Made by a program: the position numbers and the translations under genes. From NCBI GenBank assembly GCA_000002435.2, contig CM018793.1: a stretch of 64,000 bases of DNA. One strand, written 5' to 3'. The notes below the pieces were generated by a model. That model was not told the DNA's origin and ran no database searches. It saw only the letters and a list, made by a program, of their open reading frames with translations. Position 1 is the first letter of the stretch. The number at the start of each line of letters is the position of its first letter. Source of the stretch: Giardia intestinalis. Lineage: Eukaryota. Below, in pieces: positions 11,194 to 35,100 of the stretch.

Positions 11194-14100
11194 TCAAGCA
11201 TTTTGTGCTTTTTGAAGTTCTGCAATAATGCAATCCTTTTCTGCAAGCTCTCTTTTGAGCATGGAGAGCTCCGCTTTGAGACTGACAGCTTCTGGACTTG
11301 TCAAGTATGAATCTTTTCCATCAAGGCTAAGCTCTGCCTCTCTCGCCTTTGCATAGAGATCATTTTTCAATCCAGACAAATGTTGCAAAGATGTATTGAT
11401 GCGAGCATCTGAAATAGATGCATCTAACGCGAAGTTAATATTATTTTCATGAAGGATATTCCTCAATCTAACAAGCTCACTATTTTTCTCTATGTTAGCC
11501 TCTCTAAGCTTAGTCAGTGCATGCTCAAGTTGACCGACTGCAGTTATCACGCGGGCCAATTCATCTTCTGTATAGTGAAGATCATCGGTAAGCTTTTGTA
11601 CCTCGTCGCGTAGGGCGAGGGTTTCCTCACCGGGATCACTGTTGTAGGTCCAGTCAAAGCGCTCGTTCAGCGCGTCCTTATATTCCAGTATCTTATTATC
11701 CTTTGCTTGAATGCGCTCTTCTAATATTGCAATCTCTTCTTTGAGGCGAGAAATTTCAGAGATCTTCCGTTCGACTTCAGCATTGCGAGAATTAAGCAGA
11801 AGGACAAGATTATCAACAGACTGCGATACTGTTTCATCATGAAGCTTGAGATCTTTATGGGCAAGGCTTTGAAGCCTGTCTATCTCATGTTTCAAAATGG
11901 CTAACTCTTCAGTTAATGCCGCAGAGTCAATCTTTGAGTCTAAAGACGAAAGTATTGCACTTGACTTAATAAGCCCATTCAAAAACTCCTTCCCTGTTTC
12001 AAAAGTATGGACAACAGTATTTGTTTGTGACGCGACAAGCGTCTGCTGGAGTTGGATGATCTCCTCTTGGTGCTGGCGAATCGCTTGTCGAAGATCTGGG
12101 ATGGTATCCTGCATCTCGCGGATCTGGGCCTTGGCGTCGTTCATGGCTCCGAGGTTTTCGGTCAGGGCAGAGACCCTGTCCTCAGCGGCGGCGAGCTGGG
12201 CGCGGGCGGTCTGCAGGGCGTCCTGGGCCTCCGCCAGCTGAGCCGCGAGGGCATCTCGCTCGGCCTCCAGATTCTTGTGCTCGGCCTCCAGAGCTGCGGC
12301 CTCGTCGAGGGCCTTATCGAGGGCCGCACGGGCCTCATCGCGCTCGGCCTCTGCAGCACGCACGTCGGCCTCAAGGCGGCGGATGGCCTCGTCGCCGCCC
12401 TGCGCCTGCTGTGCCTTGGCGCGGAACTTCTCGGCGGCATCGGCGAGGGCCTCTGTGCCTGCTGCTGCGTGTGCCTCGAGCTCGGCGATTTTGGCGCGGG
12501 CGTCGGCAAGCCTTTCTTCGGCGGCCTTGGCCTGAGCCTCCAGCTCTGCAGCGCGCTCTGCAAGCGCCTCTGCGTCGCGAGCACGCACGGCATCTTCGGC
12601 CGCCTGCTCGCGGAGGCGCGCCAGCTCCTCGGAGAGATCCTCGAGCTGGGCCGCCTTGAGCTGGGCGTCTTCCTGGTGGGCGGCGGCCTGCTCGCGCGCT
12701 TCACGGAGCGCCGCTGCGTTCTCGGCTGCGTCGCGGCGGAGGGCTGCAAGCTCCTGCTGAAGCTGCTGCGCGGCGTCGCCGTGGTCGGCAATCCCGTCGA
12801 TCGCCTCTGCAAGCGCCTTCTCGCGGGCCTCGAGCTTGTCTGTAAGGGCGGCGCTTTCGTCTTCGAGGCGACGGATCCTGTTCTGGGCGTCCTCGAGCGC
12901 GCCGTCTGTAGCGCTTCTTTTGAGGTCCATGGCAGTAAGCTGGCGCTCGCGGTCCCGGACCTCCTCTGCTCGCGCTTCGGCCTTGCGGCCCAGCGATTGA
13001 AGGGCACTCTCCAGCTCGTCGACGCGGTTGCGCAGCCGTGCCGTCTTGGCGGCGCTTTCTTCTGCTTGCTCTGCCCTTGCGGCTGCCTCGTCCTCCAGGG
13101 CTTGAATCCGCGTTCTGGCGGCCTCGACACTGGCCGTTGTTCGGGAAAGTTCGTCACTCAGCTGGCCGATCTCCTTGTCCTTTGCATCAAGGGTGGCATG
13201 GAGGTCATCTCGCTCGGCCTCGAGTTGAACGATGCGCTCTGCAGCGCCTTCATTGTCTTGCGCACGTAGTTGTTGAAGCTCGCGCTCGCGGTTGTCTGCC
13301 TCCTCGCGAAGTCTTTCTGCCTCATTCCGGAGCATGTCAAGCGCCACTGTCTTCTCATCGAGCTCGCCCTGCTTTTGCTCCAGCTCCTTCCTAAGAGTTC
13401 CAAGCTCCATTTCCTGCATCCCTGCATCTATCTGCTTGCTCTTGAGCTCTGACAAATAATCTTCGAGCATTTGGGTGCGCTCCTTCGAATCGGAAGCCTG
13501 CTGCTCGAGATGAGAAAGTGCATCAATCTTGTCGTGTGCTTCCTGGAGCTCGCGACGAAGCTCAGCGATTTCGTCTGCCTGACGCTGTGCTAAAGTGTCT
13601 TTATCTCTGGCTGCTTCTTCTAAATAGTGGACCTGGGCCTTGGCGTCGTTCATGGCTCCGAGGTTTTCGGTCAGGGCAGAGACCCTGTCCTCAGCGGCGG
13701 CGAGCTGGGCGCGGGCGGTCTGCAGGGCGTCCTGGGCCTCCGCCAGCTGAGCCGCGAGGGCATCTCGCTCGGCCTCCAGATTCTTGTGCTCGGCCTCCAG
13801 AGCTGCGGCCTCGTCGAGGGCCTTATCGAGGGCCGCACGGGCCTCATCGCGCTCGGCCTCTGCAGCACGCACGTCGGCCTCAAGGCGGCGGATGGCCTCG
13901 TCGCCGCCCTGCGCCTGCTGTGCCTTGGCGCGGAACTTCTCGGCGGCATCGGCGAGGGCCTCTGTGCCTGCTGCTGCGTGTGCCTCGAGCTCGACGATTT
14001 TGGCGCGGGCGTCGGCAAGCCTTTCTTCGGCGGCCTTGGCCTGAGCCTCCAGCTCTGCAGCGCGCTCTGCAAGCGCCTCTGCGTCGCGAGCACGCACGGC

Positions 14101-17100
14101 ATCTTCGGCCGCCTGCTCGCGGAGGCGCGCCAGCTCCTCGGAGAGATCCTCGAGCTGGGCCGCCTTGAGCTGGGCGTCTTCCTGGTGGGCGGCGGCCTGC
14201 TCGCGCGCTTCACGGAGCGCCGCTGCGTTCTCGGCTGCGTCGCGGCGGAGGGCTGCAAGCTCCTGCTGAAGCTGCTGCGCGGCGTCGCCGTGGTCGGCAA
14301 TCCCGTCGATCGCCTCTGCAAGCGCCTTCTCGCGGGCCTCGAGCTTGTCTGTAAGGGCGGCGCTTTCGTCTTCGAGGCGACGGATCCTGTTCTGGGCGTC
14401 CTCGAGCGCGCCGTCTGTAGCGCTTCTTTTGAGGTCCATGGCAGTAAGCTGGCGCTCGCGGTCCCGGACCTCCTCTGCTCGCGCTTCGGCCTTGCGGCCC
14501 AGCGATTGAAGGGCACTCTCCAGCTCGTCGACGCGGTTGCGCAGCCGTGCCGTCTTGGCGGCGCTTTCTTCTGCTTGCTCTGCCCTTGCGGCTGCCTCGT
14601 CCTCCAGGGCTTGAATCCGCGTTCTGGCGGCCTCGACACTGGCCGTTGTTCGGGAAAGTTCGTCACTCAGCTGGCCGATCTCCTTGTCCTTTGCATCAAG
14701 GGTGGCATGGAGGTCATCTCGCTCGGCCTCGAGTTGAACGATGCGCTCTGCAGCGCCTTCATTGTCTTGCGCACGTAGTTGTTGAAGCTCGCGCTCGCGG
14801 TTGTCTGCCTCCTCGCGAAGTCTTTCTGCCTCATTCCGGAGCATGTCAAGCGCCACTGTCTTCTCATCGAGCTCGCCCTGCTTTTGCTCCAGCTCCTTCC
14901 TAAGAGTTCCAAGCTCCATTTCCTGCATCCCTGCATCTATCTGCTTGCTCTTGAGCTCTGACAAATAATCTTCGAGCATTTGGGTGCGCTCCTTCGAATC
15001 GGAAGCCTGCTGCTCGAGATGAGAAAGTGCATCAATCTTGTCGTGTGCTTCCTGGAGCTCGCGACGAAGCTCAGCGATTTCGTCTGCCTGACGCTGTGCT
15101 AAAGTGTCTTTATCTCTGGCTGCTTCTTCTAAATAGTGGACCTGGGCCTTGGCGTCGTTCATGGCTCCGAGGTTTTCGGTCAGGGCAGAGACCCTGTCCT
15201 CAGCGGCGGCGAGCTGGGCGCGGGCGGTCTGCAGGGCGTCCTGGGCCTCCGCCAGCTGAGCCGCGAGGGCATCTCGCTCGGCCTCCAGATTCTTGTGCTC
15301 GGCCTCCAGAGCTGCGGCCTCGTCGAGGGCCTTATCGAGGGCCGCACGGGCCTCATCGCGCTCGGCCTCTGCAGCACGCACGTCGGCCTCAAGGCGGCGG
15401 ATGGCCTCGTCGCCGCCCTGCGCCTGCTGTGCCTTGGCGCGGAACTTCTCGGCGGCATCGGCGAGGGCCTCTGTGCCTGCTGCTGCGTGTGCCTCGAGCT
15501 CGGCGATTTTGGCGCGGGCGTCGGCAAGCCTTTCTTCGGCGGCCTTGGCCTGAGCCTCCAGCTCTGCAGCGCGCTCTGCAAGCGCCTCTGCGTCGCGAGC
15601 ACGCACGGCATCTTCGGCCGCCTGCTCGCGGAGGCGCGCCAGCTCCTCGGAGAGATCCTCGAGCTGGGCCGCCTTGAGCTGGGCGTCTTCCTGGTGGGCG
15701 GCGGCCTGCTCGCGCGCTTCACGGAGCGCCGCTGCGTTCTCGGCTGCGTCGCGGCGGAGGGCTGCAAGCTCCTGCTGAAGCTGCTGCGCGGCGTCGCCGT
15801 GGTCGGCAATCCCGTCGATCGCCTCTGCAAGCGCCTTCTCGCGGGCCTCGAGCTTGTCTGTAAGGGCGGCGCTTTCGTCTTCGAGGCGACGGATCCTGTT
15901 CTGGGCGTCCTCGAGCGCGCCGTCTGTAGCGCTTCTTTTGAGGTCCATGGCAGTAAGCTGGCGCTCGCGGTCCCGGACCTCCTCTGCTCGCGCTTCGGCC
16001 TTGCGGCCCAGCGATTGAAGGGCACTCTCCAGCTCGTCGACGCGGTTGCGCAGCCGTGCCGTCTTGGCGGCGCTTTCTTCTGCTTGCTCTGCCCTTGCGG
16101 CTGCCTCGTCCTCCAGGGCTTGAATCCGCGTTCTGGCGGCCTCGACACTGGCCGTTGTTCGGGAAAGTTCGTCACTCAGCTGGCCGATCTCCTTGTCCTT
16201 TGCATCAAGGGTGGCATGGAGGTCATCTCGCTCGGCCTCGAGTTGAACGATGCGCTCTGCAGCGCCTTCATTGTCTTGCGCACGTAGTTGTTGAAGCTCG
16301 CGCTCGCGGTTGTCTGCCTCCTCGCGAAGTCTTTCTGCCTCATTCCGGAGCATGTCAAGCGCCACTGTCTTCTCATCGAGCTCGCCCTGCTTTTGCTCCA
16401 GCTCCTTCCTAAGAGTTCCAAGCTCCATTTCCTGCATCCCTGCATCTATCTGCTTGCTCTTGAGCTCTGACAAATAATCTTCGAGCATTTGGGTGCGCTC
16501 CTTCGAATCGGAAGCCTGCTGCTCGAGATGAGAAAGTGCATCAATCTTGTCGTGTGCTTCCTGGAGCTCGCGACGAAGCTCAGCGATTTCGTCTGCCTGA
16601 CGCTGTGCTAAAGTGTCTTTATCTCTGGCTGCTTCTTCTAAATAGTGGACCTGGGCCTTGGCGTCGTTCATGGCTCCGAGGTTTTCGGTCAGGGCAGAGA
16701 CCCTGTCCTCAGCGGCGGCGAGCTGGGCGCGGGCGGTCTGCAGGGCGTCCTGGGCCTCCGCCAGCTGAGCCGCGAGGGCATCTCGCTCGGCCTCCAGATT
16801 CTTGTGCTCGGCCTCCAGAGCTGCGGCCTCGTCGAGGGCCTTATCGAGGGCCGCACGGGCCTCATCGCGCTCGGCCTCTGCAGCACGCACGTCGGCCTCA
16901 AGGCGGCGGATGGCCTCGTCGCCGCCCTGCGCCTGCTGTGCCTTGGCGCGGAACTTCTCGGCGGCATCGGCGAGGGCCTCTGTGCCTGCTGCTGCGTGTG
17001 CCTCGAGCTCGGCGATTTTGGCGCGGGCGTCGGCAAGCCTTTCTTCGGCGGCCTTGGCCTGAGCCTCCAGCTCTGCAGCGCGCTCTGCAAGCGCCTCTGC

Positions 17101-20100
17101 GTCGCGAGCACGCACGGCATCTTCGGCCGCCTGCTCGCGGAGGCGCGCCAGCTCCTCGGAGAGATCCTCGAGCTGGGCCGCCTTGAGCTGGGCGTCTTCC
17201 TGGTGGGCGGCGGCCTGCTCGCGCGCTTCACGGAGCGCCGCTGCGTTCTCGGCTGCGTCGCGGCGGAGGGCTGCAAGCTCCTGCTGAAGCTGCTGCGCGG
17301 CGTCGCCGTGGTCGGCAATCCCGTCGATCGCCTCTGCAAGCGCCTTCTCGCGGGCCTCGAGCTTGTCTGTAAGGGCGGCGCTTTCGTCTTCGAGGCGACG
17401 GATCCTGTTCTGGGCGTCCTCGAGCGCGCCGTCTGTAGCGCTTCTTTTGAGGTCCATGGCAGTAAGCTGGCGCTCGCGGTCCCGGACCTCCTCTGCTCGC
17501 GCTTCGGCCTTGCGGCCCAGCGATTGAAGGGCACTCTCCAGCTCGTCGACGCGGTTGCGCAGCCGTGCCGTCTTGGCGGCGCTTTCTTCTGCTTGCTCTG
17601 CCCTTGCGGCTGCCTCGTCCTCCAGGGCTTGAATCCGCGTTCTGGCGGCCTCGACACTGGCCGTTGTTCGGGAAAGTTCGTCACTCAGCTGGCCGATCTC
17701 CTTGTCCTTTGCATCAAGGGTGGCATGGAGGTCATCTCGCTCGGCCTCGAGTTGAACGATGCGCTCTGCAGCGCCTTCATTGTCTTGCGCACGTAGTTGT
17801 TGAAGCTCGCGCTCGCGGTTGTCTGCCTCCTCGCGAAGTCTTTCTGCCTCATTCCGGAGCATGTCAAGCGCCACTGTCTTCTCATCGAGCTCGCCCTGCT
17901 TTTGCTCCAGCTCCTTCCTAAGAGTTCCAAGCTCCATTTCCTGCATCCCTGCATCTATCTGCTTGCTCTTGAGCTCTGACAAATAATCTTCGAGCATTTG
18001 GGTGCGCTCCTTCGAATCGGAAGCCTGCTGCTCGAGATGAGAAAGTGCATCAATCTTGTCGTGTGCTTCCTGGAGCTCGCGACGAAGCTCAGCGATTTCG
18101 TCTGCCTGACGCTGTGCTAAAGTGTCTTTATCTCTGGCTGCTTCTTCTAAATAGTGGACCTGGGCCTTGGCGTCGTTCATGGCTCCGAGGTTTTCGGTCA
18201 GGGCAGAGACCCTGTCCTCAGCGGCGGCGAGCTGGGCGCGGGCGGTCTGCAGGGCGTCCTGGGCCTCCGCCAGCTGAGCCGCGAGGGCATCTCGCTCGGC
18301 CTCCAGATTCTTGTGCTCGGCCTCCAGAGCTGCGGCCTCGTCGAGGGCCTTATCGAGGGCCGCACGGGCCTCATCGCGCTCGGCCTCTGCAGCACGCACG
18401 TCGGCCTCAAGGCGGCGGATGGCCTCGTCGCCGCCCTGCGCCTGCTGTGCCTTGGCGCGGAACTTCTCGGCGGCATCGGCGAGGGCCTCTGTGCCTGCTG
18501 CTGCGTGTGCCTCGAGCTCGGCGATTTTGGCGCGGGCGTCGGCAAGCCTTTCTTCGGCGGCCTTGGCCTGAGCCTCCAGCTCTGCAGCGCGCTCTGCAAG
18601 CGCCTCTGCGTCGCGAGCACGCACGGCATCTTCGGCCGCCTGCTCGCGGAGGCGCGCCAGCTCCTCGGAGAGATCCTCGAGCTGGGCCGCCTTGAGCTGG
18701 GCGTCTTCCTGGTGGGCGGCGGCCTGCTCGCGCGCTTCACGGAGCGCCGCTGCGTTCTCGGCTGCGTCGCGGCGGAGGGCTGCAAGCTCCTGCTGAAGCT
18801 GCTGCGCGGCGTCGCCGTGGTCGGCAATCCCGTCGATCGCCTCTGCAAGCGCCTTCTCGCGGGCCTCGAGCTTGTCTGTAAGGGCGGCGCTTTCGTCTTC
18901 GAGGCGACGGATCCTGTTCTGGGCGTCCTCGAGCGCGCCGTCTGTAGCGCTTCTTTTGAGGTCCATGGCAGTAAGCTGGCGCTCGCGGTCCCGGACCTCC
19001 TCTGCTCGCGCTTCGGCCTTGCGGCCCAGCGATTGAAGGGCACTCTCCAGCTCGTCGACGCGGTTGCGCAGCCGTGCCGTCTTGGCGGCGCTTTCTTCTG
19101 CTTGCTCTGCCCTTGCGGCTGCCTCGTCCTCCAGGGCTTGAATCCGCGTTCTGGCGGCCTCGACACTGGCCGTTGTTCGGGAAAGTTCGTCACTCAGCTG
19201 GCCGATCTCCTTGTCCTTTGCATCAAGGGTGGCATGGAGGTCATCTCGCTCGGCCTCGAGTTGAACGATGCGCTCTGCAGCGCCTTCATTGTCTTGCGCA
19301 CGTAGTTGTTGAAGCTCGCGCTCGCGGTTGTCTGCCTCCTCGCGAAGTCTTTCTGCCTCATTCCGGAGCATGTCAAGCGCCACTGTCTTCTCATCGAGCT
19401 CGCCCTGCTTTTGCTCCAGCTCCTTCCTAAGAGCGCTTGCTTCAATAGTATAAATTTGAGTATCTGACATCTGTGATTTAAGCTCACTAACAAAATCTTC
19501 CAACCGTTGAGTACGTTCTTTGGAATCGTTCGCTCTTTCCTCTGATGCCTTATTTAATTTTTTCAGGTCTGCTACCTCTGTCAAAAGTTCCTTTTTGTCG
19601 CGCTCGAGTTGAGCCACGCGATCAACAAGATCTTGAGATTCCTCTGCCTCTAGTTTCATAGTGGCAATTTCATCCATTTGTGCATTTAAGTTATCCAATA
19701 GCTCCGCCATCTGAATTTCATTGGCTTGTGCCTCATGGGTTCGTCTGGCAAATTCCATCTGGGACGCGACAAGCGTCTGCTGGAGTTGGATGATCTCCTC
19801 TTGGTGCTGGCGAATCGCTTGTCGAAGATCTGGGATGGTATCCTGCATCTCGCGGATCTGGGCCTTGGCGTCGTTCATGGCTCCGAGGTTTTCGGTCAGG
19901 GCAGAGACCCTGTCCTCAGCGGCGGCGAGCTGGGCGCGGGCGGTCTGCAGGGCGTCCTGGGCCTCCGCCAGCTGAGCCGCGAGGGCATCTCGCTCGGCCT
20001 CCAGATTCTTGTGCTCGGCCTCCAGAGCTGCGGCCTCGTCGAGGGCCTTATCGAGGGCCGCACGGGCCTCATCGCGCTCGGCCTCTGCAGCACGCACGTC

Positions 20101-23100
20101 GGCCTCAAGGCGGCGGATGGCCTCGTCGCCGCCCTGCGCCTGCTGTGCCTTGGCGCGGAACTTCTCGGCGGCATCGGCGAGGGCCTCTGTGCCTGCTGCT
20201 GCGTGTGCCTCGAGCTCGGCGATTTTGGCGCGGGCGTCGGCAAGCCTTTCTTCGGCGGCCTTGGCCTGAGCCTCCAGCTCTGCAGCGCGCTCTGCAAGCG
20301 CCTCTGCGTCGCGAGCACGCACGGCATCTTCGGCCGCCTGCTCGCGGAGGCGCGCCAGCTCCTCGGAGAGATCCTCGAGCTGGGCCGCCTTGAGCTGGGC
20401 GTCTTCCTGGTGGGCGGCGGCCTGCTCGCGCGCTTCACGGAGCGCCGCTGCGTTCTCGGCTGCGTCGCGGCGGAGGGCTGCAAGCTCCTGCTGAAGCTGC
20501 TGCGCGGCGTCGCCGTGGTCGGCAATCCCGTCGATCGCCTCTGCAAGCGCCTTCTCGCGGGCCTCGAGCTTGTCTGTAAGGGCGGCGCTTTCGTCTTCGA
20601 GGCGACGGATCCTGTTCTGGGCGTCCTCGAGCGCGCCGTCTGTAGCGCTTCTTTTGAGGTCCATGGCAGTAAGCTGGCGCTCGCGGTCCCGGACCTCCTC
20701 TGCTCGCGCTTCGGCCTTGCGGCCCAGCGATTGAAGGGCACTCTCCAGCTCGTCGACGCGGTTGCGCAGCCGTGCCGTCTTGGCGGCGCTTTCTTCTGCT
20801 TGCTCTGCCCTTGCGGCTGCCTCGTCCTCCAGGGCTTGAATCCGCGTTCTGGCGGCCTCGACACTGGCCGTTGTTCGGGAAAGTTCGTCACTCAGCTGGC
20901 CGATCTCCTTGTCCTTTGCATCAAGGGTGGCATGGAGGTCATCTCGCTCGGCCTCGAGTTGAACGATGCGCTCTGCAGCGCCTTCATTGTCTTGCGCACG
21001 TAGTTGTTGAAGCTCGCGCTCGCGGTTGTCTGCCTCCTCGCGAAGTCTTTCTGCCTCATTCCGGAGCATGTCAAGCGCCACTGTCTTCTCATCGAGCTCG
21101 CCCTGCTTTTGCTCCAGCTCCTTCCTAAGAGCGCTTGCTTCAATAGTATAAATTTGAGTATCTGACATCTGTGATTTAAGCTCACTAACAAAATCTTCCA
21201 ACCGTTGAGTACGTTCTTTGGAATCGTTCGCTCTTTCCTCTGATGCCTTATTTAATTTTTTCAGGTCTGCTACCTCTGTCAAAAGTTCCTTTTTGTCGCG
21301 CTCGAGTTGAGCCACGCGATCAACAAGATCTTGAGATTCCTCTGCCTCTAGTTTCATAGTGGCAATTTCATCCATTTGTGCATTTAAGTTATCCAATAGC
21401 TCCGCCATCTGAATTTCATTGGCTTGTGCCTCATGGGTTCGTCTGGCAAATTCCATCTGGGACGCGACAAGCGTCTGCTGGAGTTGGATGATCTCCTCTT
21501 GGTGCTGGCGAATCGCTTGTCGAAGATCTGGGATGGTATCCTGCATCTCGCGGATCTGGGCCTTGGCGTCGTTCATGGCTCCGAGGTTTTCGGTCAGGGC
21601 AGAGACCCTGTCCTCAGCGGCGGCGAGCTGGGCGCGGGCGGTCTGCAGGGCGTCCTGGGCCTCCGCCAGCTGAGCCGCGAGGGCATCTCGCTCGGCCTCC
21701 AGATTCTTGTGCTCGGCCTCCAGAGCTGCGGCCTCGTCGAGGGCCTTATCGAGGGCCGCACGGGCCTCATCGCGCTCGGCCTCTGCAGCACGCACGTCGG
21801 CCTCAAGGCGGCGGATGGCCTCGTCGCCGCCCTGCGCCTGCTGTGCCTTGGCGCGGAACTTCTCGGCGGCATCGGCGAGGGCCTCTGTGCCTGCTGCTGC
21901 GTGTGCCTCGAGCTCGGCGATTTTGGCGCGGGCGTCGGCAAGCCTTTCTTCGGCGGCCTTGGCCTGAGCCTCCAGCTCTGCAGCGCGCTCTGCAAGCGCC
22001 TCTGCGTCGCGAGCACGCACGGCATCTTCGGCCGCCTGCTCGCGGAGGCGCGCCAGCTCCTCGGAGAGATCCTCGAGCTGGGCCGCCTTGAGCTGGGCGT
22101 CTTCCTGGTGGGCGGCGGCCTGCTCGCGCGCTTCACGGAGCGCCGCTGCGTTCTCGGCTGCGTCGCGGCGGAGGGCTGCAAGCTCCTGCTGAAGCTGCTG
22201 CGCGGCGTCGCCGTGGTCGGCAATCCCGTCGATCGCCTCTGCAAGCGCCTTCTCGCGGGCCTCGAGCTTGTCTGTAAGGGCGGCGCTTTCGTCTTCGAGG
22301 CGACGGATCCTGTTCTGGGCGTCCTCGAGCGCGCCGTCTGTAGCGCTTCTTTTGAGGTCCATGGCAGTAAGCTGGCGCTCGCGGTCCCGGACCTCCTCTG
22401 CTCGCGCTTCGGCCTTGCGGCCCAGCGATTGAAGGGCACTCTCCAGCTCGTCGACGCGGTTGCGCAGCCGTGCCGTCTTGGCGGCGCTTTCTTCTGCTTG
22501 CTCTGCCCTTGCGGCTGCCTCGTCCTCCAGGGCTTGAATCCGCGTTCTGGCGGCCTCGACACTGGCCGTTGTTCGGGAAAGTTCGTCACTCAGCTGGCCG
22601 ATCTCCTTGTCCTTTGCATCAAGGGTGGCATGGAGGTCATCTCGCTCGGCCTCGAGTTGAACGATGCGCTCTGCAGCGCCTTCATTGTCTTGCGCACGTA
22701 GTTGTTGAAGCTCGCGCTCGCGGTTGTCTGCCTCCTCGCGAAGTCTTTCTGCCTCATTCCGGAGCATGTCAAGCGCCACTGTCTTCTCATCGAGCTCGCC
22801 CTGCTTTTGCTCCAGCTCCTTCCTAAGAGCGCTTGCTTCAATAGTATAAATTTGAGTATCTGACATCTGTGATTTAAGCTCACTAACAAAATCTTCCAAC
22901 CGTTGAGTACGTTCTTTGGAATCGTTCGCTCTTTCCTCTGATGCCTTATTTAATTTTTTCAGGTCTGCTACCTCTGTCAAAAGTTCCTTTTTGTCGCGCT
23001 CGAGTTGAGCCACGCGATCAACAAGATCTTGAGATTCCTCTGCCTCTAGTTTCATAGTGGCAATTTCATCCATTTGTGCATTTAAGTTATCCAATAGCTC

Positions 23101-26100: not shown

Positions 26101-29100
26101 TTGAAGCTCGCGCTCGCGGTTGTCTGCCTCCTCGCGAAGTCTTTCTGCCTCATTCCGGAGCATGTCAAGCGCCACTGTCTTCTCATCGAGCTCGCCCTGC
26201 TTTTGCTCCAGCTCCTTCCTAAGAGTTCCAAGCTCCATTTCCTGCATCCCTGCATCTATCTGCTTGCTCTTGAGCTCTGACAAATAATCTTCGAGCATTT
26301 GGGTGCGCTCCTTCGAATCGGAAGCCTGCTGCTCGAGATGAGAAAGTGCATCAATCTTGTCGTGTGCTTCCTGGAGCTCGCGACGAAGCTCAGCGATTTC
26401 GTCTGCCTGACGCTGTGCTAAAGTGTCTTTATCTCTGGCTGCTTCTTCTAAATAGTGGACCTGGGCCTTGGCGTCGTTCATGGCTCCGAGGTTTTCGGTC
26501 AGGGCAGAGACCCTGTCCTCAGCGGCGGCGAGCTGGGCGCGGGCGGTCTGCAGGGCGTCCTGGGCCTCCGCCAGCTGAGCCGCGAGGGCATCTCGCTCGG
26601 CCTCCAGATTCTTGTGCTCGGCCTCCAGAGCTGCGGCCTCGTCGAGGGCCTTATCGAGGGCCGCACGGGCCTCATCGCGCTCGGCCTCTGCAGCACGCAC
26701 GTCGGCCTCAAGGCGGCGGATGGCCTCGTCGCCGCCCTGCGCCTGCTGTGCCTTGGCGCGGAACTTCTCGGCGGCATCGGCGAGGGCCTCTGTGCCTGCT
26801 GCTGCGTGTGCCTCGAGCTCGGCGATTTTGGCGCGGGCGTCGGCAAGCCTTTCTTCGGCGGCCTTGGCCTGAGCCTCCAGCTCTGCAGCGCGCTCTGCAA
26901 GCGCCTCTGCGTCGCGAGCACGCACGGCATCTTCGGCCGCCTGCTCGCGGAGGCGCGCCAGCTCCTCGGAGAGATCCTCGAGCTGGGCCGCCTTGAGCTG
27001 GGCGTCTTCCTGGTGGGCGGCGGCCTGCTCGCGCGCTTCACGGAGCGCCGCTGCGTTCTCGGCTGCGTCGCGGCGGAGGGCTGCAAGCTCCTGCTGAAGC
27101 TGCTGCGCGGCGTCGCCGTGGTCGGCAATCCCGTCGATCGCCTCTGCAAGCGCCTTCTCGCGGGCCTCGAGCTTGTCTGTAAGGGCGGCGCTTTCGTCTT
27201 CGAGGCGACGGATCCTGTTCTGGGCGTCCTCGAGCGCGCCGTCTGTAGCGCTTCTTTTGAGGTCCATGGCAGTAAGCTGGCGCTCGCGGTCCCGGACCTC
27301 CTCTGCTCGCGCTTCGGCCTTGCGGCCCAGCGATTGAAGGGCACTCTCCAGCTCGTCGACGCGGTTGCGCAGCCGTGCCGTCTTGGCGGCGCTTTCTTCT
27401 GCTTGCTCTGCCCTTGCGGCTGCCTCGTCCTCCAGGGCTTGAATCCGCGTTCTGGCGGCCTCGACACTGGCCGTTGTTCGGGAAAGTTCGTCACTCAGCT
27501 GGCCGATCTCCTTGTCCTTTGCATCAAGGGTGGCATGGAGGTCATCTCGCTCGGCCTCGAGTTGAACGATGCGCTCTGCAGCGCCTTCATTGTCTTGCGC
27601 ACGTAGTTGTTGAAGCTCGCGCTCGCGGTTGTCTGCCTCCTCGCGAAGTCTTTCTGCCTCATTCCGGAGCATGTCAAGCGCCACTGTCTTCTCATCGAGC
27701 TCGCCCTGCTTTTGCTCCAGCTCCTTCCTAAGAGCGCTTGCTTCAATAGTATAAATTTGAGTATCTGACATCTGTGATTTAAGCTCACTAACAAAATCTT
27801 CCAACCGTTGAGTACGTTCTTTGGAATCGTTCGCTCTTTCCTCTGATGCCTTATTTAATTTTTTCAGGTCTGCTACCTCTGTCAAAAGTTCCTTTTTGTC
27901 GCGCTCGAGTTGAGCCACGCGATCAACAAGATCTTGAGATTCCTCTGCCTCTAGTTTCATAGTGGCAATTTCATCCATTTGTGCATTTAAGTTATCCAAT
28001 AGCTCCGCCATCTGAATTTCATTGGCTTGTGCCTCATGGGTTCGTCTGGCAAATTCCATCTGGGACGCGACAAGCGTCTGCTGGAGTTGGATGATCTCCT
28101 CTTGGTGCTGGCGAATCGCTTGTCGAAGATCTGGGATGGTATCCTGCATCTCGCGGATCTGGGCCTTGGCGTCGTTCATGGCTCCGAGGTTTTCGGTCAG
28201 GGCAGAGACCCTGTCCTCAGCGGCGGCGAGCTGGGCGCGGGCGGTCTGCAGGGCGTCCTGGGCCTCCGCCAGCTGAGCCGCGAGGGCATCTCGCTCGGCC
28301 TCCAGATTCTTGTGCTCGGCCTCCAGAGCTGCGGCCTCGTCGAGGGCCTTATCGAGGGCCGCACGGGCCTCATCGCGCTCGGCCTCTGCAGCACGCACGT
28401 CGGCCTCAAGGCGGCGGATGGCCTCGTCGCCGCCCTGCGCCTGCTGTGCCTTGGCGCGGAACTTCTCGGCGGCATCGGCGAGGGCCTCTGTGCCTGCTGC
28501 TGCGTGTGCCTCGAGCTCGGCGATTTTGGCGCGGGCGTCGGCAAGCCTTTCTTCGGCGGCCTTGGCCTGAGCCTCCAGCTCTGCAGCGCGCTCTGCAAGC
28601 GCCTCTGCGTCGCGAGCACGCACGGCATCTTCGGCCGCCTGCTCGCGGAGGCGCGCCAGCTCCTCGGAGAGATCCTCGAGCTGGGCCGCCTTGAGCTGGG
28701 CGTCTTCCTGGTGGGCGGCGGCCTGCTCGCGCGCTTCACGGAGCGCCGCTGCGTTCTCGGCTGCGTCGCGGCGGAGGGCTGCAAGCTCCTGCTGAAGCTG
28801 CTGCGCGGCGTCGCCGTGGTCGGCAATCCCGTCGATCGCCTCTGCAAGCGCCTTCTCGCGGGCCTCGAGCTTGTCTGTAAGGGCGGCGCTTTCGTCTTCG
28901 AGGCGACGGATCCTGTTCTGGGCGTCCTCGAGCGCGCCGTCTGTAGCGCTTCTTTTGAGGTCCATGGCAGTAAGCTGGCGCTCGCGGTCCCGGACCTCCT
29001 CTGCTCGCGCTTCGGCCTTGCGGCCCAGCGATTGAAGGGCACTCTCCAGCTCGTCGACGCGGTTGCGCAGCCGTGCCGTCTTGGCGGCGCTTTCTTCTGC

Positions 29101-32100
29101 TTGCTCTGCCCTTGCGGCTGCCTCGTCCTCCAGGGCTTGAATCCGCGTTCTGGCGGCCTCGACACTGGCCGTTGTTCGGGAAAGTTCGTCACTCAGCTGG
29201 CCGATCTCCTTGTCCTTTGCATCAAGGGTGGCATGGAGGTCATCTCGCTCGGCCTCGAGTTGAACGATGCGCTCTGCAGCGCCTTCATTGTCTTGCGCAC
29301 GTAGTTGTTGAAGCTCGCGCTCGCGGTTGTCTGCCTCCTCGCGAAGTCTTTCTGCCTCATTCCGGAGCATGTCAAGCGCCACTGTCTTCTCATCGAGCTC
29401 GCCCTGCTTTTGCTCCAGCTCCTTCCTAAGAGCGCTTGCTTCAATAGTATAAATTTGAGTATCTGACATCTGTGATTTAAGCTCACTAACAAAATCTTCC
29501 AACCGTTGAGTACGTTCTTTGGAATCGTTCGCTCTTTCCTCTGATGCCTTATTTAATTTTTTCAGGTCTGCTACCTCTGTCAAAAGTTCCTTTTTGTCGC
29601 GCTCGAGTTGAGCCACGCGATCAACAAGATCTTGAGATTCCTCTGCCTCTAGTTTCATAGTGGCAATTTCATCCATTTGTGCATTTAAGTTATCCAATAG
29701 CTCCGCCATCTGAATTTCATTGGCTTGTGCCTCATGGGTTCGTCTGGCAAATTCCATCTGGGACGCGACAAGCGTCTGCTGGAGTTGGATGATCTCCTCT
29801 TGGTGCTGGCGAATCGCTTGTCGAAGATCTGGGATGGTATCCTGCATCTCGCGGATCTGGGCCTTGGCGTCGTTCATGGCTCCGAGGTTTTCGGTCAGGG
29901 CAGAGACCCTGTCCTCAGCGGCGGCGAGCTGGGCGCGGGCGGTCTGCAGGGCGTCCTGGGCCTCCGCCAGCTGAGCCGCGAGGGCATCTCGCTCGGCCTC
30001 CAGATTCTTGTGCTCGGCCTCCAGAGCTGCGGCCTCGTCGAGGGCCTTATCGAGGGCCGCACGGGCCTCATCGCGCTCGGCCTCTGCAGCACGCACGTCG
30101 GCCTCAAGGCGGCGGATGGCCTCGTCGCCGCCCTGCGCCTGCTGTGCCTTGGCGCGGAACTTCTCGGCGGCATCGGCGAGGGCCTCTGTGCCTGCTGCTG
30201 CGTGTGCCTCGAGCTCGGCGATTTTGGCGCGGGCGTCGGCAAGCCTTTCTTCGGCGGCCTTGGCCTGAGCCTCCAGCTCTGCAGCGCGCTCTGCAAGCGC
30301 CTCTGCGTCGCGAGCACGCACGGCATCTTCGGCCGCCTGCTCGCGGAGGCGCGCCAGCTCCTCGGAGAGATCCTCGAGCTGGGCCGCCTTGAGCTGGGCG
30401 TCTTCCTGGTGGGCGGCGGCCTGCTCGCGCGCTTCACGGAGCGCCGCTGCGTTCTCGGCTGCGTCGCGGCGGAGGGCTGCAAGCTCCTGCTGAAGCTGCT
30501 GCGCGGCGTCGCCGTGGTCGGCAATCCCGTCGATCGCCTCTGCAAGCGCCTTCTCGCGGGCCTCGAGCTTGTCTGTAAGGGCGGCGCTTTCGTCTTCGAG
30601 GCGACGGATCCTGTTCTGGGCGTCCTCGAGCGCGCCGTCTGTAGCGCTTCTTTTGAGGTCCATGGCAGTAAGCTGGCGCTCGCGGTCCCGGACCTCCTCT
30701 GCTCGCGCTTCGGCCTTGCGGCCCAGCGATTGAAGGGCACTCTCCAGCTCGTCGACGCGGTTGCGCAGCCGTGCCGTCTTGGCGGCGCTTTCTTCTGCTT
30801 GCTCTGCCCTTGCGGCTGCCTCGTCCTCCAGGGCTTGAATCCGCGTTCTGGCGGCCTCGACACTGGCCGTTGTTCGGGAAAGTTCGTCACTCAGCTGGCC
30901 GATCTCCTTGTCCTTTGCATCAAGGGTGGCATGGAGGTCATCTCGCTCGGCCTCGAGTTGAACGATGCGCTCTGCAGCGCCTTCATTGTCTTGCGCACGT
31001 AGTTGTTGAAGCTCGCGCTCGCGGTTGTCTGCCTCCTCGCGAAGTCTTTCTGCCTCATTCCGGAGCATGTCAAGCGCCACTGTCTTCTCATCGAGCTCGC
31101 CCTGCTTTTGCTCCAGCTCCTTCCTAAGAGTTCCAAGCTCCATTTCCTGCATCCCTGCATCTATCTGCTTGCTCTTGAGCTCTGACAAATAATCTTCGAG
31201 CATTTGGGTGCGCTCCTTCGAATCGGAAGCCTGCTGCTCGAGATGAGAAAGTGCATCAATCTTGTCGTGTGCTTCCTGGAGCTCGCGACGAAGCTCAGCG
31301 ATTTCGTCTGCCTGACGCTGTGCTAAAGTGTCTTTATCTCTGGCTGCTTCTTCTAAATAGTGGACCTGGGCCTTGGCGTCGTTCATGGCTCCGAGGTTTT
31401 CGGTCAGGGCAGAGACCCTGTCCTCAGCGGCGGCGAGCTGGGCGCGGGCGGTCTGCAGGGCGTCCTGGGCCTCCGCCAGCTGAGCCGCGAGGGCATCTCG
31501 CTCGGCCTCCAGATTCTTGTGCTCGGCCTCCAGAGCTGCGGCCTCGTCGAGGGCCTTATCGAGGGCCGCACGGGCCTCATCGCGCTCGGCCTCTGCAGCA
31601 CGCACGTCGGCCTCAAGGCGGCGGATGGCCTCGTCGCCGCCCTGCGCCTGCTGTGCCTTGGCGCGGAACTTCTCGGCGGCATCGGCGAGGGCCTCTGTGC
31701 CTGCTGCTGCGTGTGCCTCGAGCTCGGCGATTTTGGCGCGGGCGTCGGCAAGCCTTTCTTCGGCGGCCTTGGCCTGAGCCTCCAGCTCTGCAGCGCGCTC
31801 TGCAAGCGCCTCTGCGTCGCGAGCACGCACGGCATCTTCGGCCGCCTGCTCGCGGAGGCGCGCCAGCTCCTCGGAGAGATCCTCGAGCTGGGCCGCCTTG
31901 AGCTGGGCGTCTTCCTGGTGGGCGGCGGCCTGCTCGCGCGCTTCACGGAGCGCCGCTGCGTTCTCGGCTGCGTCGCGGCGGAGGGCTGCAAGCTCCTGCT
32001 GAAGCTGCTGCGCGGCGTCGCCGTGGTCGGCAATCCCGTCGATCGCCTCTGCAAGCGCCTTCTCGCGGGCCTCGAGCTTGTCTGTAAGGGCGGCGCTTTC

Positions 32101-35100
32101 GTCCTCGAGATGGCGAATCAAATTGTTGGCATGCTCAAGCTCACGTTCCAACGTATTTGACTTGCCCACAAGAGCCACAATATCCTTGTTGAGCTTATCT
32201 CGCTCTGATAATAGAGATGATAACTGTGACTGGAGCCCTGAAATTACTTCAGGATCGTCTCGCTTATTGTCAGTCAACTGAACCCGAAGATCGTCAAGTT
32301 CGCGCCGCAACTGAAGCCTCTCATCGTCTGCGCTGTTCAGAAGGGCAGATAACTTGTCCCTAACATCTTCCAATTCACAGATCTTTTCTTGTAAACTTTC
32401 TCGATCCAGTTTGAGCATGGAGATCTGCTTGTTCAGTTCGATAGTAGCTTTATCTGCAAGATGAAGATTATCTATGATAGCATCTTTCTGAGATAATTCA
32501 TCTTTCAATTGTTTTAGTTCTGCTTCCTTTGTATTGAGAGAATCAAGTGCAAGATGAAGTTCATCCGTTAGTGCCCTAATGCGATCATAGAGCTCCGTTA
32601 TCTTGTCAGCATTGTCTGGCGACTCAAGAGATGCGTATTGCGAATCCACGACACTTGGTGCATGAAGAAGCGAATCCTGTGATCCACGTATTTTTTCTTC
32701 TTGCACTGCTTGTAAGTTGCTCAATTTGGACTTGAGTTGACTAATTTCATCCAAAAGCATTGCGACGGTTTGGGATTGATCGACTGGTGCTCGTAGAATC
32801 GCGGACATCTGCTCTACACGATCACTCAACTGCTCGAGATCTTTTTGGTGCCTGCGCATTAGGTTCTGATTCTCTTTGCGAGCCATCTCTGGGTCTGCAA
32901 GCGCGTCTCTGCAAGCATCAAGAGACGCTACTGTGTTAGCTAAGTACTGCTTCACTACTTGATATGTTGGTTCCTTCGTGGAGAGTTCTGTCAAGACCTC
33001 TATCTCTTTCTGTGCGTGTTCAAGCCGGGCTCGCAAGTCCAGCAGCTCATTGTTGGTCTTCCTTTTGGAGGCAGTATAAGTGGCATCGGCATCTGCCTTT
33101 TCCTTTCGAAGAACTCCTAATTTATCGGATAGATCTTTAACCTTTTGTTCGTTGGAAGAGTTCTCAACTGAAAGCTTATCGTAAGCGCGTCTAATATCAA
33201 CTAGCTCGGCCTCCTTATCTAGAAGCTTATTTTGGGAAGCTGCGCATGTACTCATTGCTGTCTCAAGTTGTCGCTCCAGAGGATGAATTCGTTCATCCTT
33301 CTGCTTAAGCAAGGCCTCTAGCGAATTCTGTTCCTTGATAAGCGCGTTATTCTGCTCTTTAACGTCTTGGAGAGACTTAAGCAAAGCTTCATTCTTTGCT
33401 ACTAAATCAGCAAATTGTGGCGGTATGGGTTGTGGCGCAGATGTCTTTTCGAGATCAAGGATGTGGCGGTCTTTTTCACGTAGCTCAGCAGTAAGATTGT
33501 CAATGACCAGCTTGAGATGTTGGAGCTCAAGAGCTGCAGATTTATTTGCTTCGTTAGGTGCCGCCTCCTTATAAGTCACCAATAAGTTGTTCATGTCATC
33601 TATTTGTTTGTTCTTCTCAGTAAGCTGTGCTTTTAGATGCTGAATTTCTCCAAGAAGTCCCGTTATTTCCGACTGCAACTGGTCGATGGTGGCAAGGTTG
33701 CTCTCCTGTATCTTAGAACCAGATTTATTTAAGCGTAAAATTTCATCTGCCAGTTCCTTGATCTTCTGGTTGCGTAGCTGAATGTCATCCTCCTTAGAAA
33801 ACAGTGCAGATTGCAGACGGTCGACCTCATTCTTCAACTCATTGAGCTGTGCCTCCATAACTTTTATTGTCTCGCCATCTGAATCACTATCAGATTTATC
33901 GTGGCTTCTACTCAATAATTGCTGCCGAAGATCGAAGATTTCATTGTCCTTGTTTTCTATGTTAGCTGACATCTTCTTCAACGTGTGTCGGAGTGCGACA
34001 TTTTCGTCCTTGAGTTTTGCAACTTCCTTTCCTGCCAAATCACGCTGAGTAGCGCTTGCTGAAAGAGCCGCCTTAGATTGCTCTGAAGACATGCTAGTAT
34101 CTACTAGCTCGGCTCTCAAACGGCGAATGGTTTGATTGGCGTTGTCTAGCTTCTGCTCTAGGCCTAATATGTCACTGCGCAAGGTGTCGATTTCACGGTC
34201 CTTGGCAGATCCGGTGTCCCTGAGTTTCGCCAAGAGAATGTTCTTCTCTACTGCATCATCCTTGAGCTGATGGATTAACTGAGCCATCCCATCAGCGTCT
34301 TTGTGGAGCCGGTTGATCTCTTGCTTAAATGCATTAACTGCCGCTCCATGCGGATGGCTTGTTGCGTCATTGATGCCTGCCCTGAGCTCACTGATCATTG
34401 CAGCCTTCTTGGTATTGTCCTGACGAGACTCATCTAACTGAGCCTGCAATCTAATAATCTCCTGATTCATCTGATTGACTTGATTTTGAAGTGCCTGATT
34501 CTGGACGATTATTATTGAAGACTCATCGTTCAAAGAGGCAATCTTGCGTTCCATCTCAGTTATCTTTCTCTCAAGATCGCCTTCTATTTGGGATCGGCTA
34601 AGCATAGACAGGTCCACATTGCGACCCGGGAAATCTTTCACTATATCTACAATAGAACTGGATAAACCAAAAGAGCTGACAGTTGGGTCATCCTTACTCA
34701 GCTTTGCGGGGTCGGGAATGAGATCTGATACTACTTCTGGTAGTAGGTGAGACTCTAGAGGGTAGAGGATGCGTGCAACATCCCAGTGCTTATTCTGAGC
34801 TGCTAAAATAAGGGCTGTCTTGGCATCCTTAGAGATGTGCTCCTTCTCTCTCAACACAAGATGCTGTGCTGCCTCAAATTGTCCTGCTTCTGCTGCATAC
34901 ATTAGCGCCGTCCTGCCCATTAGATCAGTGCGACATTTCTGATAAGGTAGAAGGTTTATCGTCGAGTCGACTGCGCCAGCAGCTGCAGCAAGCATCAACG
35001 GCGTGCGCCCGTCTGGTAGAACAAGATTCATTTCATAGGGAACAAGGCGTTTGCAGGCCTCCCCCTCATTGCAGACAGCAGCAAGCATAAGGGCAGTATA

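What the first reader, a model, noticed from the sequence alone, without database searches (positions are those of the whole stretch)
12029..32115. Mosaic two-state tandem array with linker order B', A, A, A, A, B, B, B, B, A, B, B, A.
The array has 12 full identical 1152-bp cores and one partial core. They are joined by two alternative linker types, A at 357 bp and B at 546 bp. The linkers are homologous only over their 3' part, around DSKERTQ.LED..SELKS. The same-type runs AAAA and BBBB, followed by the interleaved A, B, B, A, are the pattern expected from repeated unequal crossing-over and gene conversion between two ancestral unit variants. The first unit enters mid-way through a B linker: the C-terminal tail of the protein begins IREMQDTIPDL... 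and then diverges at LVASQ|TNTVV. The last core decays at GGAFV|LEMANQ. Together these define the array edges exactly. The order of A and B linkers would serve as a barcode for comparing isolates or haplotypes.
Basis: seen in the sequence. Interest (0 to 1): 0.75.

Follow-up and report, generated by a model that had tools for sequence, protein, structure and literature searches.

The report
Giant repeat array in Giardia stalk-protein gene
The 20-kb mosaic repeat is real and lies in frame inside one 24-kb gene of the parasite Giardia intestinalis WB, where it stretches the rod of an ankyrin-headed cytoskeletal "head-stalk" protein from about 1,600 to 8,035 amino acids; it is a striking but conventional coding macrosatellite that older assemblies had collapsed.

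Summary
Positions 12029-32103 carry 12 full copies plus one 738-bp partial copy of a shared block. By exact identity the block is 1274 bp (not 1152), and the linkers are 235 bp (A) and 424 bp (B). One copy has a single SNP at 13994.

The array sits in frame in a minus-strand ORF (11194-35301, 8035 aa, about 890 kDa). The neighbouring proteins match Giardia intestinalis WB C6 exactly (the PacBio reference). The gene is the one annotated as "GASP-180" (XP_001709357.1) and "GHSP-138". It was 2124 aa in the 2007 assembly and is 1621 aa in isolate DH, both collapsed. Short-read contigs stop at both array edges.

The units are coiled coil. Units A and B differ by exactly 9 heptads. The WB cores differ at 1 of 15,288 nt, whereas the assemblage B orthologue differs by 15%. 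Synonymous-site GC is 0.71 in the core against about 0.4 in the rest of the gene, in both assemblages. This fits long-term gene conversion and unequal exchange.

The linker order itself is not significantly clustered (P = 0.18). Copy number and order rest on one assembly. This is a new member of a known kind and of moderate interest.

The parts
11194..35301 (-). Single open reading frame of 8035 codons plus stop (about 890 kDa, pI 4.7). It is the Giardia head-stalk protein gene annotated as XP_001709357.1 'GASP-180' / 'GHSP-138'.
   Evidence: ORF list, translation, cluster membership of its N-terminus, mass. An AT-rich initiator AATTTAAAATG sits at the start.
34702..35301 (-). N-terminal ankyrin-repeat head (about aa 1-200).
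   Evidence: Pfam Ank_2 E = 9.6e-31 with 3 stretches, plus Ank, Ank_3, Ank_4 and Ank_5. 43% identity over 292 aa to an assemblage B protein of 1620 aa that carries the same ankyrin head and a coiled-coil stalk.
32116..34611 (-). Unique (non-repeated) N-proximal coiled-coil stalk, aa 231-1062.
   Evidence: Translation. 3.5-residue hydrophobic periodicity. Only sub-threshold coiled-coil Pfam hits.
12029..32103 (-). The whole in-frame array: 20,075 bp, aa 1063-7759, 83% of the protein. It is 12 periods (6 x 1509 and 6 x 1698) plus 833 bp.
31366..32103 (-). Partial core (the promoter-proximal copy). It is exact over 738 bp and corresponds to the C-terminal 246 codons of a core. Homology decays over 32104 to about 32165.
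31131..31365 (-). Linker A (235 bp), copy 6.
   Evidence: Identical to the other A linkers.
29857..31130 (-). Core 12 (1274 bp).
29433..29856 (-). Linker B (424 bp).
28159..29432 (-). Core 11.
27735..28158 (-). Linker B.
26461..27734 (-). Core 10.
26226..26460 (-). Linker A.
24952..26225 (-). Core 9.
24528..24951 (-). Linker B.
23254..24527 (-). Core 8.
22830..23253 (-). Linker B.
21556..22829 (-). Core 7.
21132..21555 (-). Linker B.
19858..21131 (-). Core 6.
19434..19857 (-). Linker B.
18160..19433 (-). Core 5.
17925..18159 (-). Linker A.
16651..17924 (-). Core 4.
16416..16650 (-). Linker A.
15142..16415 (-). Core 3.
14907..15141 (-). Linker A.
13633..14906 (-). Core 2. It carries the only difference among the cores: G>A at 13994 (Ala>Val, KIVELEAH).
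13398..13632 (-). Linker A.
12124..13397 (-). Core 1 (the last core in the protein).
12029..12123 (-). B': the first 95 nt (in coding sense) of a B linker, IREMQDTIPDL...LVASQ. It joins the last core to the unique tail. The same junction is present in assemblages B and E.
   Evidence: P0236, P15; P0241, GS_B.
11194..12028 (-). Unique C-terminal tail (aa 7760-8035) plus stop codon.
   Evidence: 84% aa identity to the GS_B orthologue.

Best explanation
The region is an in-frame coding macrosatellite inside one gene of Giardia intestinalis (assemblage A, isolate WB C6, the 4.02-Mb scaffold of the 2020 PacBio reference). [quoted passage not shown] It is the paralogue deposited as 'GHSP-138' and annotated 'axoneme-associated protein GASP-180' (XP_001709357.1).

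Each repeat unit (503 or 566 aa) is almost entirely alpha-helical heptad-repeat sequence with a few glycine-containing breaks. The array therefore adds about 75-84 nm of rod per unit and brings the stalk to roughly 1.1 um (inferred). The two unit types differ by exactly 63 aa, which is 9 heptads, so swapping A for B preserves the heptad register.

The array is kept uniform by repeated unequal exchange and gene conversion whose tracts lie within the 1274-bp core. This explains three things. The cores are identical while the two linker types, which are old and poorly alignable, persist and are shuffled. Identity stops abruptly at both edges. The core is a GC-rich island at synonymous sites, a signature like GC-biased gene conversion that is also present in the assemblage B orthologue.

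Shown: the anatomy, the reading frame, the organism and gene identity, the helical and heptad character, the identity contrast and the composition contrast. Inferred: the recombination mechanism, the dimeric rod geometry, the cytoskeletal role, and that the copy number and order in the reference are those of the living cell.
For: - Array anatomy and periods. Both periods are multiples of 3, and one intact ORF of 8035 codons spans the array.
- Organism: 10 of 10 neighbouring proteins are exact matches to G. intestinalis WB C6 entries KAE83050xx / GL50803_00xxxxx on a 4,018,654-bp contig.
- Gene identity: the N-terminus clusters with XP_001709357.1 / E2RU46 / ACJ49153.1 (2124 aa) and with DH ESU39728.1 (1621 aa). 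Their sequences are the same protein with 1 period and 0 periods. 8035 - 2124 = 5911 = 5 x 503 + 6 x 566.
- Family: Pfam ankyrin hits. Head 43% identical to an ankyrin-headed coiled-coil protein from assemblage B. Named paralogues include G. muris 'axoneme-associated protein'.
- Coiled coil: a strong 3.5-residue hydrophobic periodicity in the core (power 4.1 against <=0.3 at other periods) and no proline. An AlphaFold single-sequence model of A+core+B gives five helices of 66-154 residues separated by 4-9-residue breaks, mean pLDDT 75. The unit has only sub-threshold coiled-coil Pfam hits.
- Heptad register: 503 and 566 are both 6 mod 7, and their difference is 63 = 9 x 7.
- Concerted evolution: 1 difference in 12 x 1274 nt. 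By contrast WB and GS_B are 85% nt identical in the core end, with 41 of 123 identical residues using different codons.
- Composition: four-fold-site GC is 0.705 in the core against 0.37-0.42 in the rest of the same gene (Fisher P = 1e-17). In GS_B it is 0.73 against 0.23.
- Independent support for repeat edges: Logan short-read contigs from at least 5 sequencing runs stop at 12057/12058, about 30 nt into B'. One contig stops at 32101. The P15 and GS_B gene models are cut at the array.
- Read lengths: the reference was built from 200x PacBio reads with N50 12.7 kb and 10% above 20 kb. Resolving the longest uniform runs (AAAA 7.4 kb, BBBB 8.1 kb) needs only about 8.5-kb reads.
Against: - Copy number and linker order come from one assembly. 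No raw long reads could be examined.
- The authors of that assembly say about 20 kb may be the largest duplication it could resolve, and this array is about that size.
- Quiver and Illumina polishing of multi-mapped reads can erase small differences between copies, so 'perfect identity' may be slightly overstated.
- The full 8035-aa protein is not in the 15-billion-protein collection, so I could not confirm how the reference annotates it.
- I found no independent sequence containing the B-specific part of linker B.
- There is no localisation or expression evidence for this particular paralogue. The published GASP-180 identifiers that I could test are other genes.
- A GC-rich core could in principle reflect something other than biased conversion.
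Confidence: 0.8

Rival explanations
1. The repeat is real, but the reference copy number and/or A/B order is an assembly product, or is only one of several alleles in this tetraploid organism. The true locus would then have fewer, more or differently ordered units.
For: The array (20.1 kb) is at the size limit the assembly's authors give for resolvable duplications. Only 10% of reads exceed 20 kb. The DH, P15, GS_B and 2007 WB data I could reach at this locus, and the Logan short-read contigs, are collapsed or broken here. Polishing can homogenise copies.
Against: 200x coverage with N50 12.7 kb is ample to tile a mosaic whose longest uniform runs are 7.4 and 8.1 kb. The ORF is intact over 24 kb with no frameshift. 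A single SNP survived polishing in one copy, which shows that copies were not blindly merged. The authors report agreement with the MluI optical map, and this locus lies in one 29.6-kb MluI fragment that would be 11.9 kb if the array were collapsed as in the 2007 assembly.
Confidence: 0.25
2. The long array is a very recent, selectively neutral expansion peculiar to the WB C6 laboratory line. On this view the normal gene is the roughly 1,621-aa form seen in isolate DH, with a single core segment.
For: The DH protein has 0 periods and the 2007 WB protein has 1 period. Zero divergence among copies is compatible with expansion within the last few thousand generations.
Against: The DH and 2007 WB sequences come from technologies that collapse 1.3-kb perfect repeats. 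In assemblage E (P15) and assemblage B (GS_B) the gene is also broken exactly at the core, as expected if it is repeated there too. The GC island at synonymous sites of the core is equally strong in GS_B, which argues for a long history of recombination in this segment. The core and B' are more conserved between assemblages (91-97% aa) than the tail (84%).
Confidence: 0.12
3. Linker A is simply a recent internal deletion derivative of linker B (or B an insertion derivative of A), rather than the two being old unit variants.
For: B is longer than A by exactly 189 bp. The two share a C-terminal motif and identical flanks.
Against: Outside the flanking core the two linkers are barely alignable. 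Even in the conserved DSKERTQxLEDxxSELKS stretch the DNA is only about 50% identical, with many synonymous differences. That level of divergence exceeds the WB-GS_B divergence of the core (15%).
Confidence: 0.05

Closest known systems
Giardia head-stalk proteins (GASP-180, GHSP-115, GHSP-138, HPSR2; Elmendorf et al. 2005, Int J Parasitol 35:1001, cited in PMC3243723 and PMC5142787)
   Same: N-terminal ankyrin repeats followed by a long coiled-coil stalk. This gene is literally the entry named GHSP-138 / 'GASP-180' XP_001709357.1.
   Different: The deposited and old-annotation forms are 2124 aa (1621 aa in isolate DH). Here the stalk carries 12.6 identical 503/566-aa units, giving 8035 aa. It is not the GASP-180 studied experimentally (GL50803_137716, 174.5 kDa), and it is not GL50803_16745 (primers absent from the window).
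Human LPA kringle IV type 2 coding VNTR (own knowledge, not tested here)
   Same: A multi-kilobase, in-frame, head-to-tail coding repeat. Copies are nearly identical, come in two sequence subtypes (KIV-2A and KIV-2B) interspersed in the array, are collapsed by short reads, and vary in number between individuals so that protein size changes.
   Different: The LPA units are folded kringle domains spanning two exons, and they are 5.5 kb. Here the units are intron-less coiled-coil rod segments, and the two states differ by a 189-bp length change in a divergent linker. Copy-number polymorphism has not yet been shown here.
Giant repetitive cytoskeletal proteins of other flagellated parasites, such as Trypanosoma brucei MARPs and FAZ10 (own knowledge)
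   Same: Very large cytoskeleton-associated proteins made mostly of near-identical tandem repeats that short-read assemblies under-represent.
   Different: As far as I recall, the repeats of those proteins are far shorter than these 503/566-aa units. There is no sequence relationship. The role of this protein is inferred, not shown.
Tandem arrays under concerted evolution with diverged edge copies, such as rDNA and satellite arrays (general principle)
   Same: Interior copies are identical. Homology decays at one edge (32104 to about 32165). The identity boundary is sharp. Composition is shifted toward GC.
   Different: Here the array is protein-coding and held in frame, with a heptad-compatible length difference between the two unit types.

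Membership tests
Giardia head-stalk protein (GHSP / GASP-180) family | N-terminal ankyrin repeats | tested here: met
   Pfam Ank_2 E = 9.6e-31 with three stretches in aa 1-200.
Giardia head-stalk protein (GHSP / GASP-180) family | Long C-terminal coiled-coil stalk | tested here: met
   3.5-residue hydrophobic periodicity and no proline in the core. The AlphaFold model is nearly all long helices.
Giardia head-stalk protein (GHSP / GASP-180) family | Sequence relationship to named family members | tested here: met
   Same 90% cluster as XP_001709357.1 'GASP-180' and ACJ49153.1 'GHSP-138'. Head 43% identical to a 1620-aa assemblage B paralogue. Hit to G. muris 'axoneme-associated protein', E = 3e-49.
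Giardia head-stalk protein (GHSP / GASP-180) family | Association with axonemes or the cytoskeleton in the cell | not testable with these tools
   I found no localisation data for this paralogue. The published identifiers I tested belong to other genes.
Coding macrosatellite / VNTR under concerted evolution | Head-to-tail units of more than 1 kb whose length is a multiple of 3, inside an intact ORF | tested here: met
   Periods of 1509 and 1698 bp. One ORF of 8035 codons.
Coding macrosatellite / VNTR under concerted evolution | Paralogous copies far more alike than orthologous copies | tested here: met
   1 difference in 15,288 nt within WB, against 85% nt identity between WB and GS_B in the same segment.
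Coding macrosatellite / VNTR under concerted evolution | Copy number or order varies between individuals or isolates | not testable with these tools
   The DH, P15, GS_B and 2007 WB data I could reach at this locus, and the Logan short-read contigs, are collapsed or cut at the array.
Higher-order repeat (regular alternation of unit types) | A fixed multi-unit pattern repeated along the array | tested here: not met
   The order AAAABBBBABBA has no constant super-period. Only a possible single duplication of a B-B-A block (4905 bp) is seen.
Non-random (clustered) mosaic as evidence of local unequal exchange | Fewer runs of like linkers than expected by chance | tested here: inconclusive
   5 runs observed. 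Exact P(<=5 runs) = 0.175. P(an A run and a B run each of at least 4) = 0.09.

The most novel reading that the evidence does not exclude
The core of this array may be a long-lived recombination hot spot in an organism whose capacity for sex and recombination is still debated. It would leave a footprint like GC-biased gene conversion that is shared by assemblages A and B. Unit number and A/B order would then vary rapidly between isolates, or even among the four genome copies of one cell. The result would be a micrometre-scale cytoskeletal strut whose length changes in 75-84-nm, heptad-compatible steps, acting as a tunable ruler for a flagellar or disc-associated structure.
Probability: 0.25. 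Interest if true: 0.6.

Novelty: new member of a known kind. Interest (0 to 1): 0.4.

Why it matters
If the reference structure is right, this is an 890-kDa protein, 83% of which is twelve identical rod modules. Proteomic, RNA-seq and variant analyses that use the old 2124-aa model, or short reads, misrepresent it.

The locus would be a sensitive long-read marker for telling apart WB sub-lines and assemblage A isolates.

The sharp contrast in synonymous-site GC between the core and the rest of the same gene is a ready-made test case for gene conversion in Giardia.

Functionally, it offers a natural series for asking whether stalk length of a head-stalk protein sets a cytoskeletal dimension.

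None of this changes current concepts. It refines the annotation and opens modest experiments.

Tried and rejected
- Tandem Repeats Finder reported nothing because its longest period is 500. I used k-mer and exact-block scripts and the repeat finder instead.
- I guessed the gene might be GL50803_16745. That is rejected: its published tagging primers (PMC5142787 supplement) are absent from the window.
- GL50803_137716 is a 174.5-kDa protein, so it is also a different gene. The locus tag of this gene remains unknown to me.
- An exact look-up of the 8035-aa protein showed it is not in the collection.
- A search with a repeat unit returned only the GS_B fragment. A search with the tail returned only two assemblage B fragments. 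I therefore obtained no other isolate's array and no independent B-linker sequence.
- A metagenome scan with a degenerate DSKERTQxLEDxxSELK pattern gave 0 hits.
- Literature searches covered GHSP-138, the accession numbers, Giardia with tandem repeats and coiled-coil, and three long-read Giardia genome papers. None described this array.
- Pfam on the unit gave only sub-threshold coiled-coil matches.
- BLASTP of a unit against itself and the unique parts found no internal sub-repeats, and no homology of the linkers to other parts beyond B' and the decaying N-side edge.
- The apparent frameshift in the Logan protein P0001 is one of three homopolymer-length differences in that data set. I treat it as a sequencing error.
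- Two 946-aa ankyrin proteins near the locus are only distant paralogues.

Full report
**1. What is in the sequence**

A k-mer self-comparison of the window, exact block matching and the repeat finder agree. Between 12029 and 32103 there are 13 copies of one sequence. Their start-to-start spacing is 1509, 1509, 1509, 1509, 1698, 1698, 1698, 1698, 1509, 1698, 1698, 1509.

The stretch shared without any difference by units of both periods is 1274 bp. There are 12 full copies, starting at 12124, 13633, 15142, 16651, 18160, 19858, 21556, 23254, 24952, 26461, 28159 and 29857. Between them lie two kinds of linker:
- A is 235 bp, with six identical copies.
- B is 424 bp, with six identical copies.

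On the low-coordinate side the array starts with 95 nt of a B linker (B', 12029-12123). On the high-coordinate side it ends with a partial core. That core is exact for 738 bp (31366-32103) and then decays to background over about 60-80 nt.

- One core is not identical. Copy 2 has a G>A change at 13994 (Ala>Val).

The position itself is right.

**2. The array lies inside one gene**

The only long ORF through the region is on the minus strand, 11194-35301, and has 8035 codons. Both periods are multiples of three (503 and 566 codons), and there is no frameshift or stop across 24 kb.

The protein has these parts, in order:
- an ankyrin-repeat head (Pfam Ank_2 E = 1e-30);
- about 830 residues of unique coiled coil;
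- the array (aa 1063-7759, 83% of the protein);
- a 276-residue unique tail.

The calculated mass is 890 kDa.

**3. Organism and gene**

Ten neighbouring proteins are exact matches to Giardia intestinalis WB C6 (ATCC 50803) entries of the 2020 PacBio reference. These carry KAE83050xx accessions and GL50803_00... locus tags, on a contig of 4,018,654 bp.

The N-terminus of the giant protein belongs to a 90% cluster that contains the following entries:

| Entry | Source | Length |
|---|---|---|
| ESU39728.1 | isolate DH | 1621 aa |
| EFO60931.1 and EFO62296.1 (two fragments) | isolate P15, assemblage E | 397 and 316 aa |

Reading those sequences shows the same protein with the array collapsed. 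The 2007 WB model keeps one A period, and DH keeps none. The arithmetic fits: 8035 - 2124 = 5911 = 5 x 503 + 6 x 566.

In P15 the gene is split at the array. In assemblage B (GS_B, GSB_151937) a contig ends inside the core. That contig carries core end + B' + tail followed by the orthologue of GL50803_16731, so it is syntenic.

I tested whether this is one of the two 'GASP-180' identifiers used in the literature. It is neither:
- The published primers for GL50803_16745 are absent from the window.
- GL50803_137716 is a 174.5-kDa protein.

**4. Independent support and its limits**

Short-read (Logan) contigs from at least five sequencing runs end at 12057/12058, about one k-mer into B'. One contig coming from the other side ends at 32101. 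Independent data therefore confirm that repetition starts exactly at the two edges. They say nothing about copy number or order.

Copy number and order rest on the PacBio assembly: 200x coverage, read N50 12.7 kb, 10% of reads above 20 kb, HGAP/Quiver assembly plus Illumina correction (PMC7000408). Because the array is a mosaic, the longest uniform stretches are 7.4 kb (AAAA) and 8.1 kb (BBBB). Reads of about 8.5 kb are enough to resolve it, so the structure is credible.

The authors themselves note that about 20 kb may be the largest duplication they could resolve. Polishing can also erase small differences between copies.

There is a simple external check. MluI sites at 10185 and 39793 bracket the array. 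The optical-map fragment should therefore be 29.6 kb, or 11.9 kb if the array were collapsed as in the 2007 assembly.

**5. What the units are**

The core shows a strong 3.5-residue hydrophobic periodicity and contains no proline. Pfam finds only sub-threshold coiled-coil matches in the unit.

An AlphaFold single-sequence model of A+core+B (644 aa, mean pLDDT 75) has five helices of 66-154 residues. They are separated by breaks of 4-9 residues, the three within the core lying at or next to glycines.

Units A and B are both 6 mod 7 residues long and differ by exactly 63 residues, which is nine heptads. Exchanging one for the other therefore does not shift the heptad register. The chance of this is about 1 in 7, so it is suggestive only.

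With the standard 0.1485 nm rise per residue of a coiled coil, each unit adds 75-84 nm and the whole stalk is about 1.1-1.2 um. This is an inference.

**6. How the array is maintained**

Within WB the 12 cores differ at 1 of 15,288 positions. The same segment differs by 15% in DNA (9% in protein) between WB and the assemblage B orthologue, and a third of the conserved residues use different codons. The copies therefore do not evolve independently.

The two linkers, in contrast, are old. They align only over about 30 codons around (A/N)DSKERTQxLEDxxSELKS. Even there the DNA is about 50% identical, with many synonymous differences. A is not a recent deletion of B.

The B'-to-tail junction (LVASQ|T...) is the same in assemblages A, B and E, so that edge predates their split.

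Composition gives a further signal:

| Segment | GC at four-fold degenerate sites |
|---|---|
| WB core | 0.705 |
| WB linkers, N-terminal part and tail of the same gene | 0.37-0.42 |
| GS_B core end | 0.73 |
| GS_B tail | 0.23 |

The WB core-versus-rest contrast has Fisher P = 1e-17. Expression level cannot explain a contrast within a single gene. It fits GC-biased gene conversion confined to the segment that recombines, acting since before the A/B split. Together with the contig breaks in P15 and GS_B, this argues that the segment has been repeated for a long time, not only in the WB laboratory line.

The decaying homology just upstream of the partial core (ELEHANNLIRH against ALEDAQNRIRR) looks like an old edge copy outside the conversion tracts.

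**7.

Unequal crossing-over and gene conversion are the right class of explanation. The specific evidence offered, however, was the runs AAAA and BBBB, and that is weak. Among all orders of six A and six B, 17.5% have five or fewer runs, and 9% have both an A run and a B run of at least four.

The tail of the order (BBA BBA on the + strand) could reflect one duplication of a 4905-bp three-unit block. With identical copies this cannot be tested.

The 'barcode' idea is reasonable but untested, because no other resolved array could be retrieved.

**8. Comparison with what is known**

[quoted passage not shown] 2005, cited in PMC3243723 and PMC5142787). It has the ankyrin head, the coiled-coil stalk and sequence relationship to named family members, and all three were tested and met. 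Cellular location could not be tested.

As a genetic object it is a coding macrosatellite under concerted evolution. The nearest analogue I know is the human LPA kringle IV-2 VNTR, which also has two interspersed subtypes. This comparison rests on my own knowledge and was not tested here.

I found no paper that describes this array. That includes the reference-genome paper and three other long-read Giardia genome papers.

**9. Verdict**

- The feature is a new member of a known kind: real, large and neat, with some useful handles (isolate typing, a gene-conversion test case, a possible length-setting rod). It is not conceptually new.
- The exact unit count and order await long-read or optical-map confirmation.
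- Interest: 0.4.

Noticed in passing
window 12124-31130 (each core), compared with the rest of CDS 11194-35301; L002 1-1338: The repeated core is a sharp GC island at synonymous sites. Four-fold-site GC is 0.705 in the core against 0.37-0.42 in the linkers, N-terminal part and tail of the same gene. The assemblage B orthologue shows the same contrast (0.73 against 0.23).
   Followed up: partly
window 13994: The only difference among the 12 cores is a G>A change (Ala>Val) in copy 2. It is either a genuine young mutation or a residual consensus error. If real, it marks one unit uniquely.
   Followed up: partly
L001 (Logan SRR13990249_112), positions about 8683, 10058 and 12698; window 36708, 35332 and 32691: This short-read contig differs from the window by three single-base homopolymer contractions (G4>G3, A7>A6, A6>A5). 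One of them frameshifts the giant gene's N-terminal stalk and produced the 929-aa cluster representative P0001. This is most likely sequencing error in that run.
   Followed up: yes
window 1997-11146 (-): The downstream neighbour GL50803_0016731 is a 3049-aa protein with no Pfam match at E <= 0.01. It is conserved and syntenic in assemblage B (3091 aa in L002). Only 47 bp separate it from the giant gene's stop codon.
   Followed up: no
window 12052-32160, + strand and other minus frames: The ORF list shows repeated spurious ORFs of 216-425 aa on the antisense strand and in off-frames of every unit. These are a by-product of the GC-rich, stop-poor core. An automated gene caller could report them as a 'gene family'.
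   Followed up: partly
window 10185 and 39793: The array contains no MluI site. It sits in a single predicted 29.6-kb MluI fragment, which makes the published optical map a direct size check.
   Followed up: partly
P0235 (DH isolate) against window about 32104-32106: At the upper array edge, DH has Arg (as in the cores: NLIRRLEDES) where WB has His (NLIRHLEDES). Either the conversion boundary differs by a codon between sub-assemblages AI and AII, or the DH assembly used interior-copy reads there.
   Followed up: no
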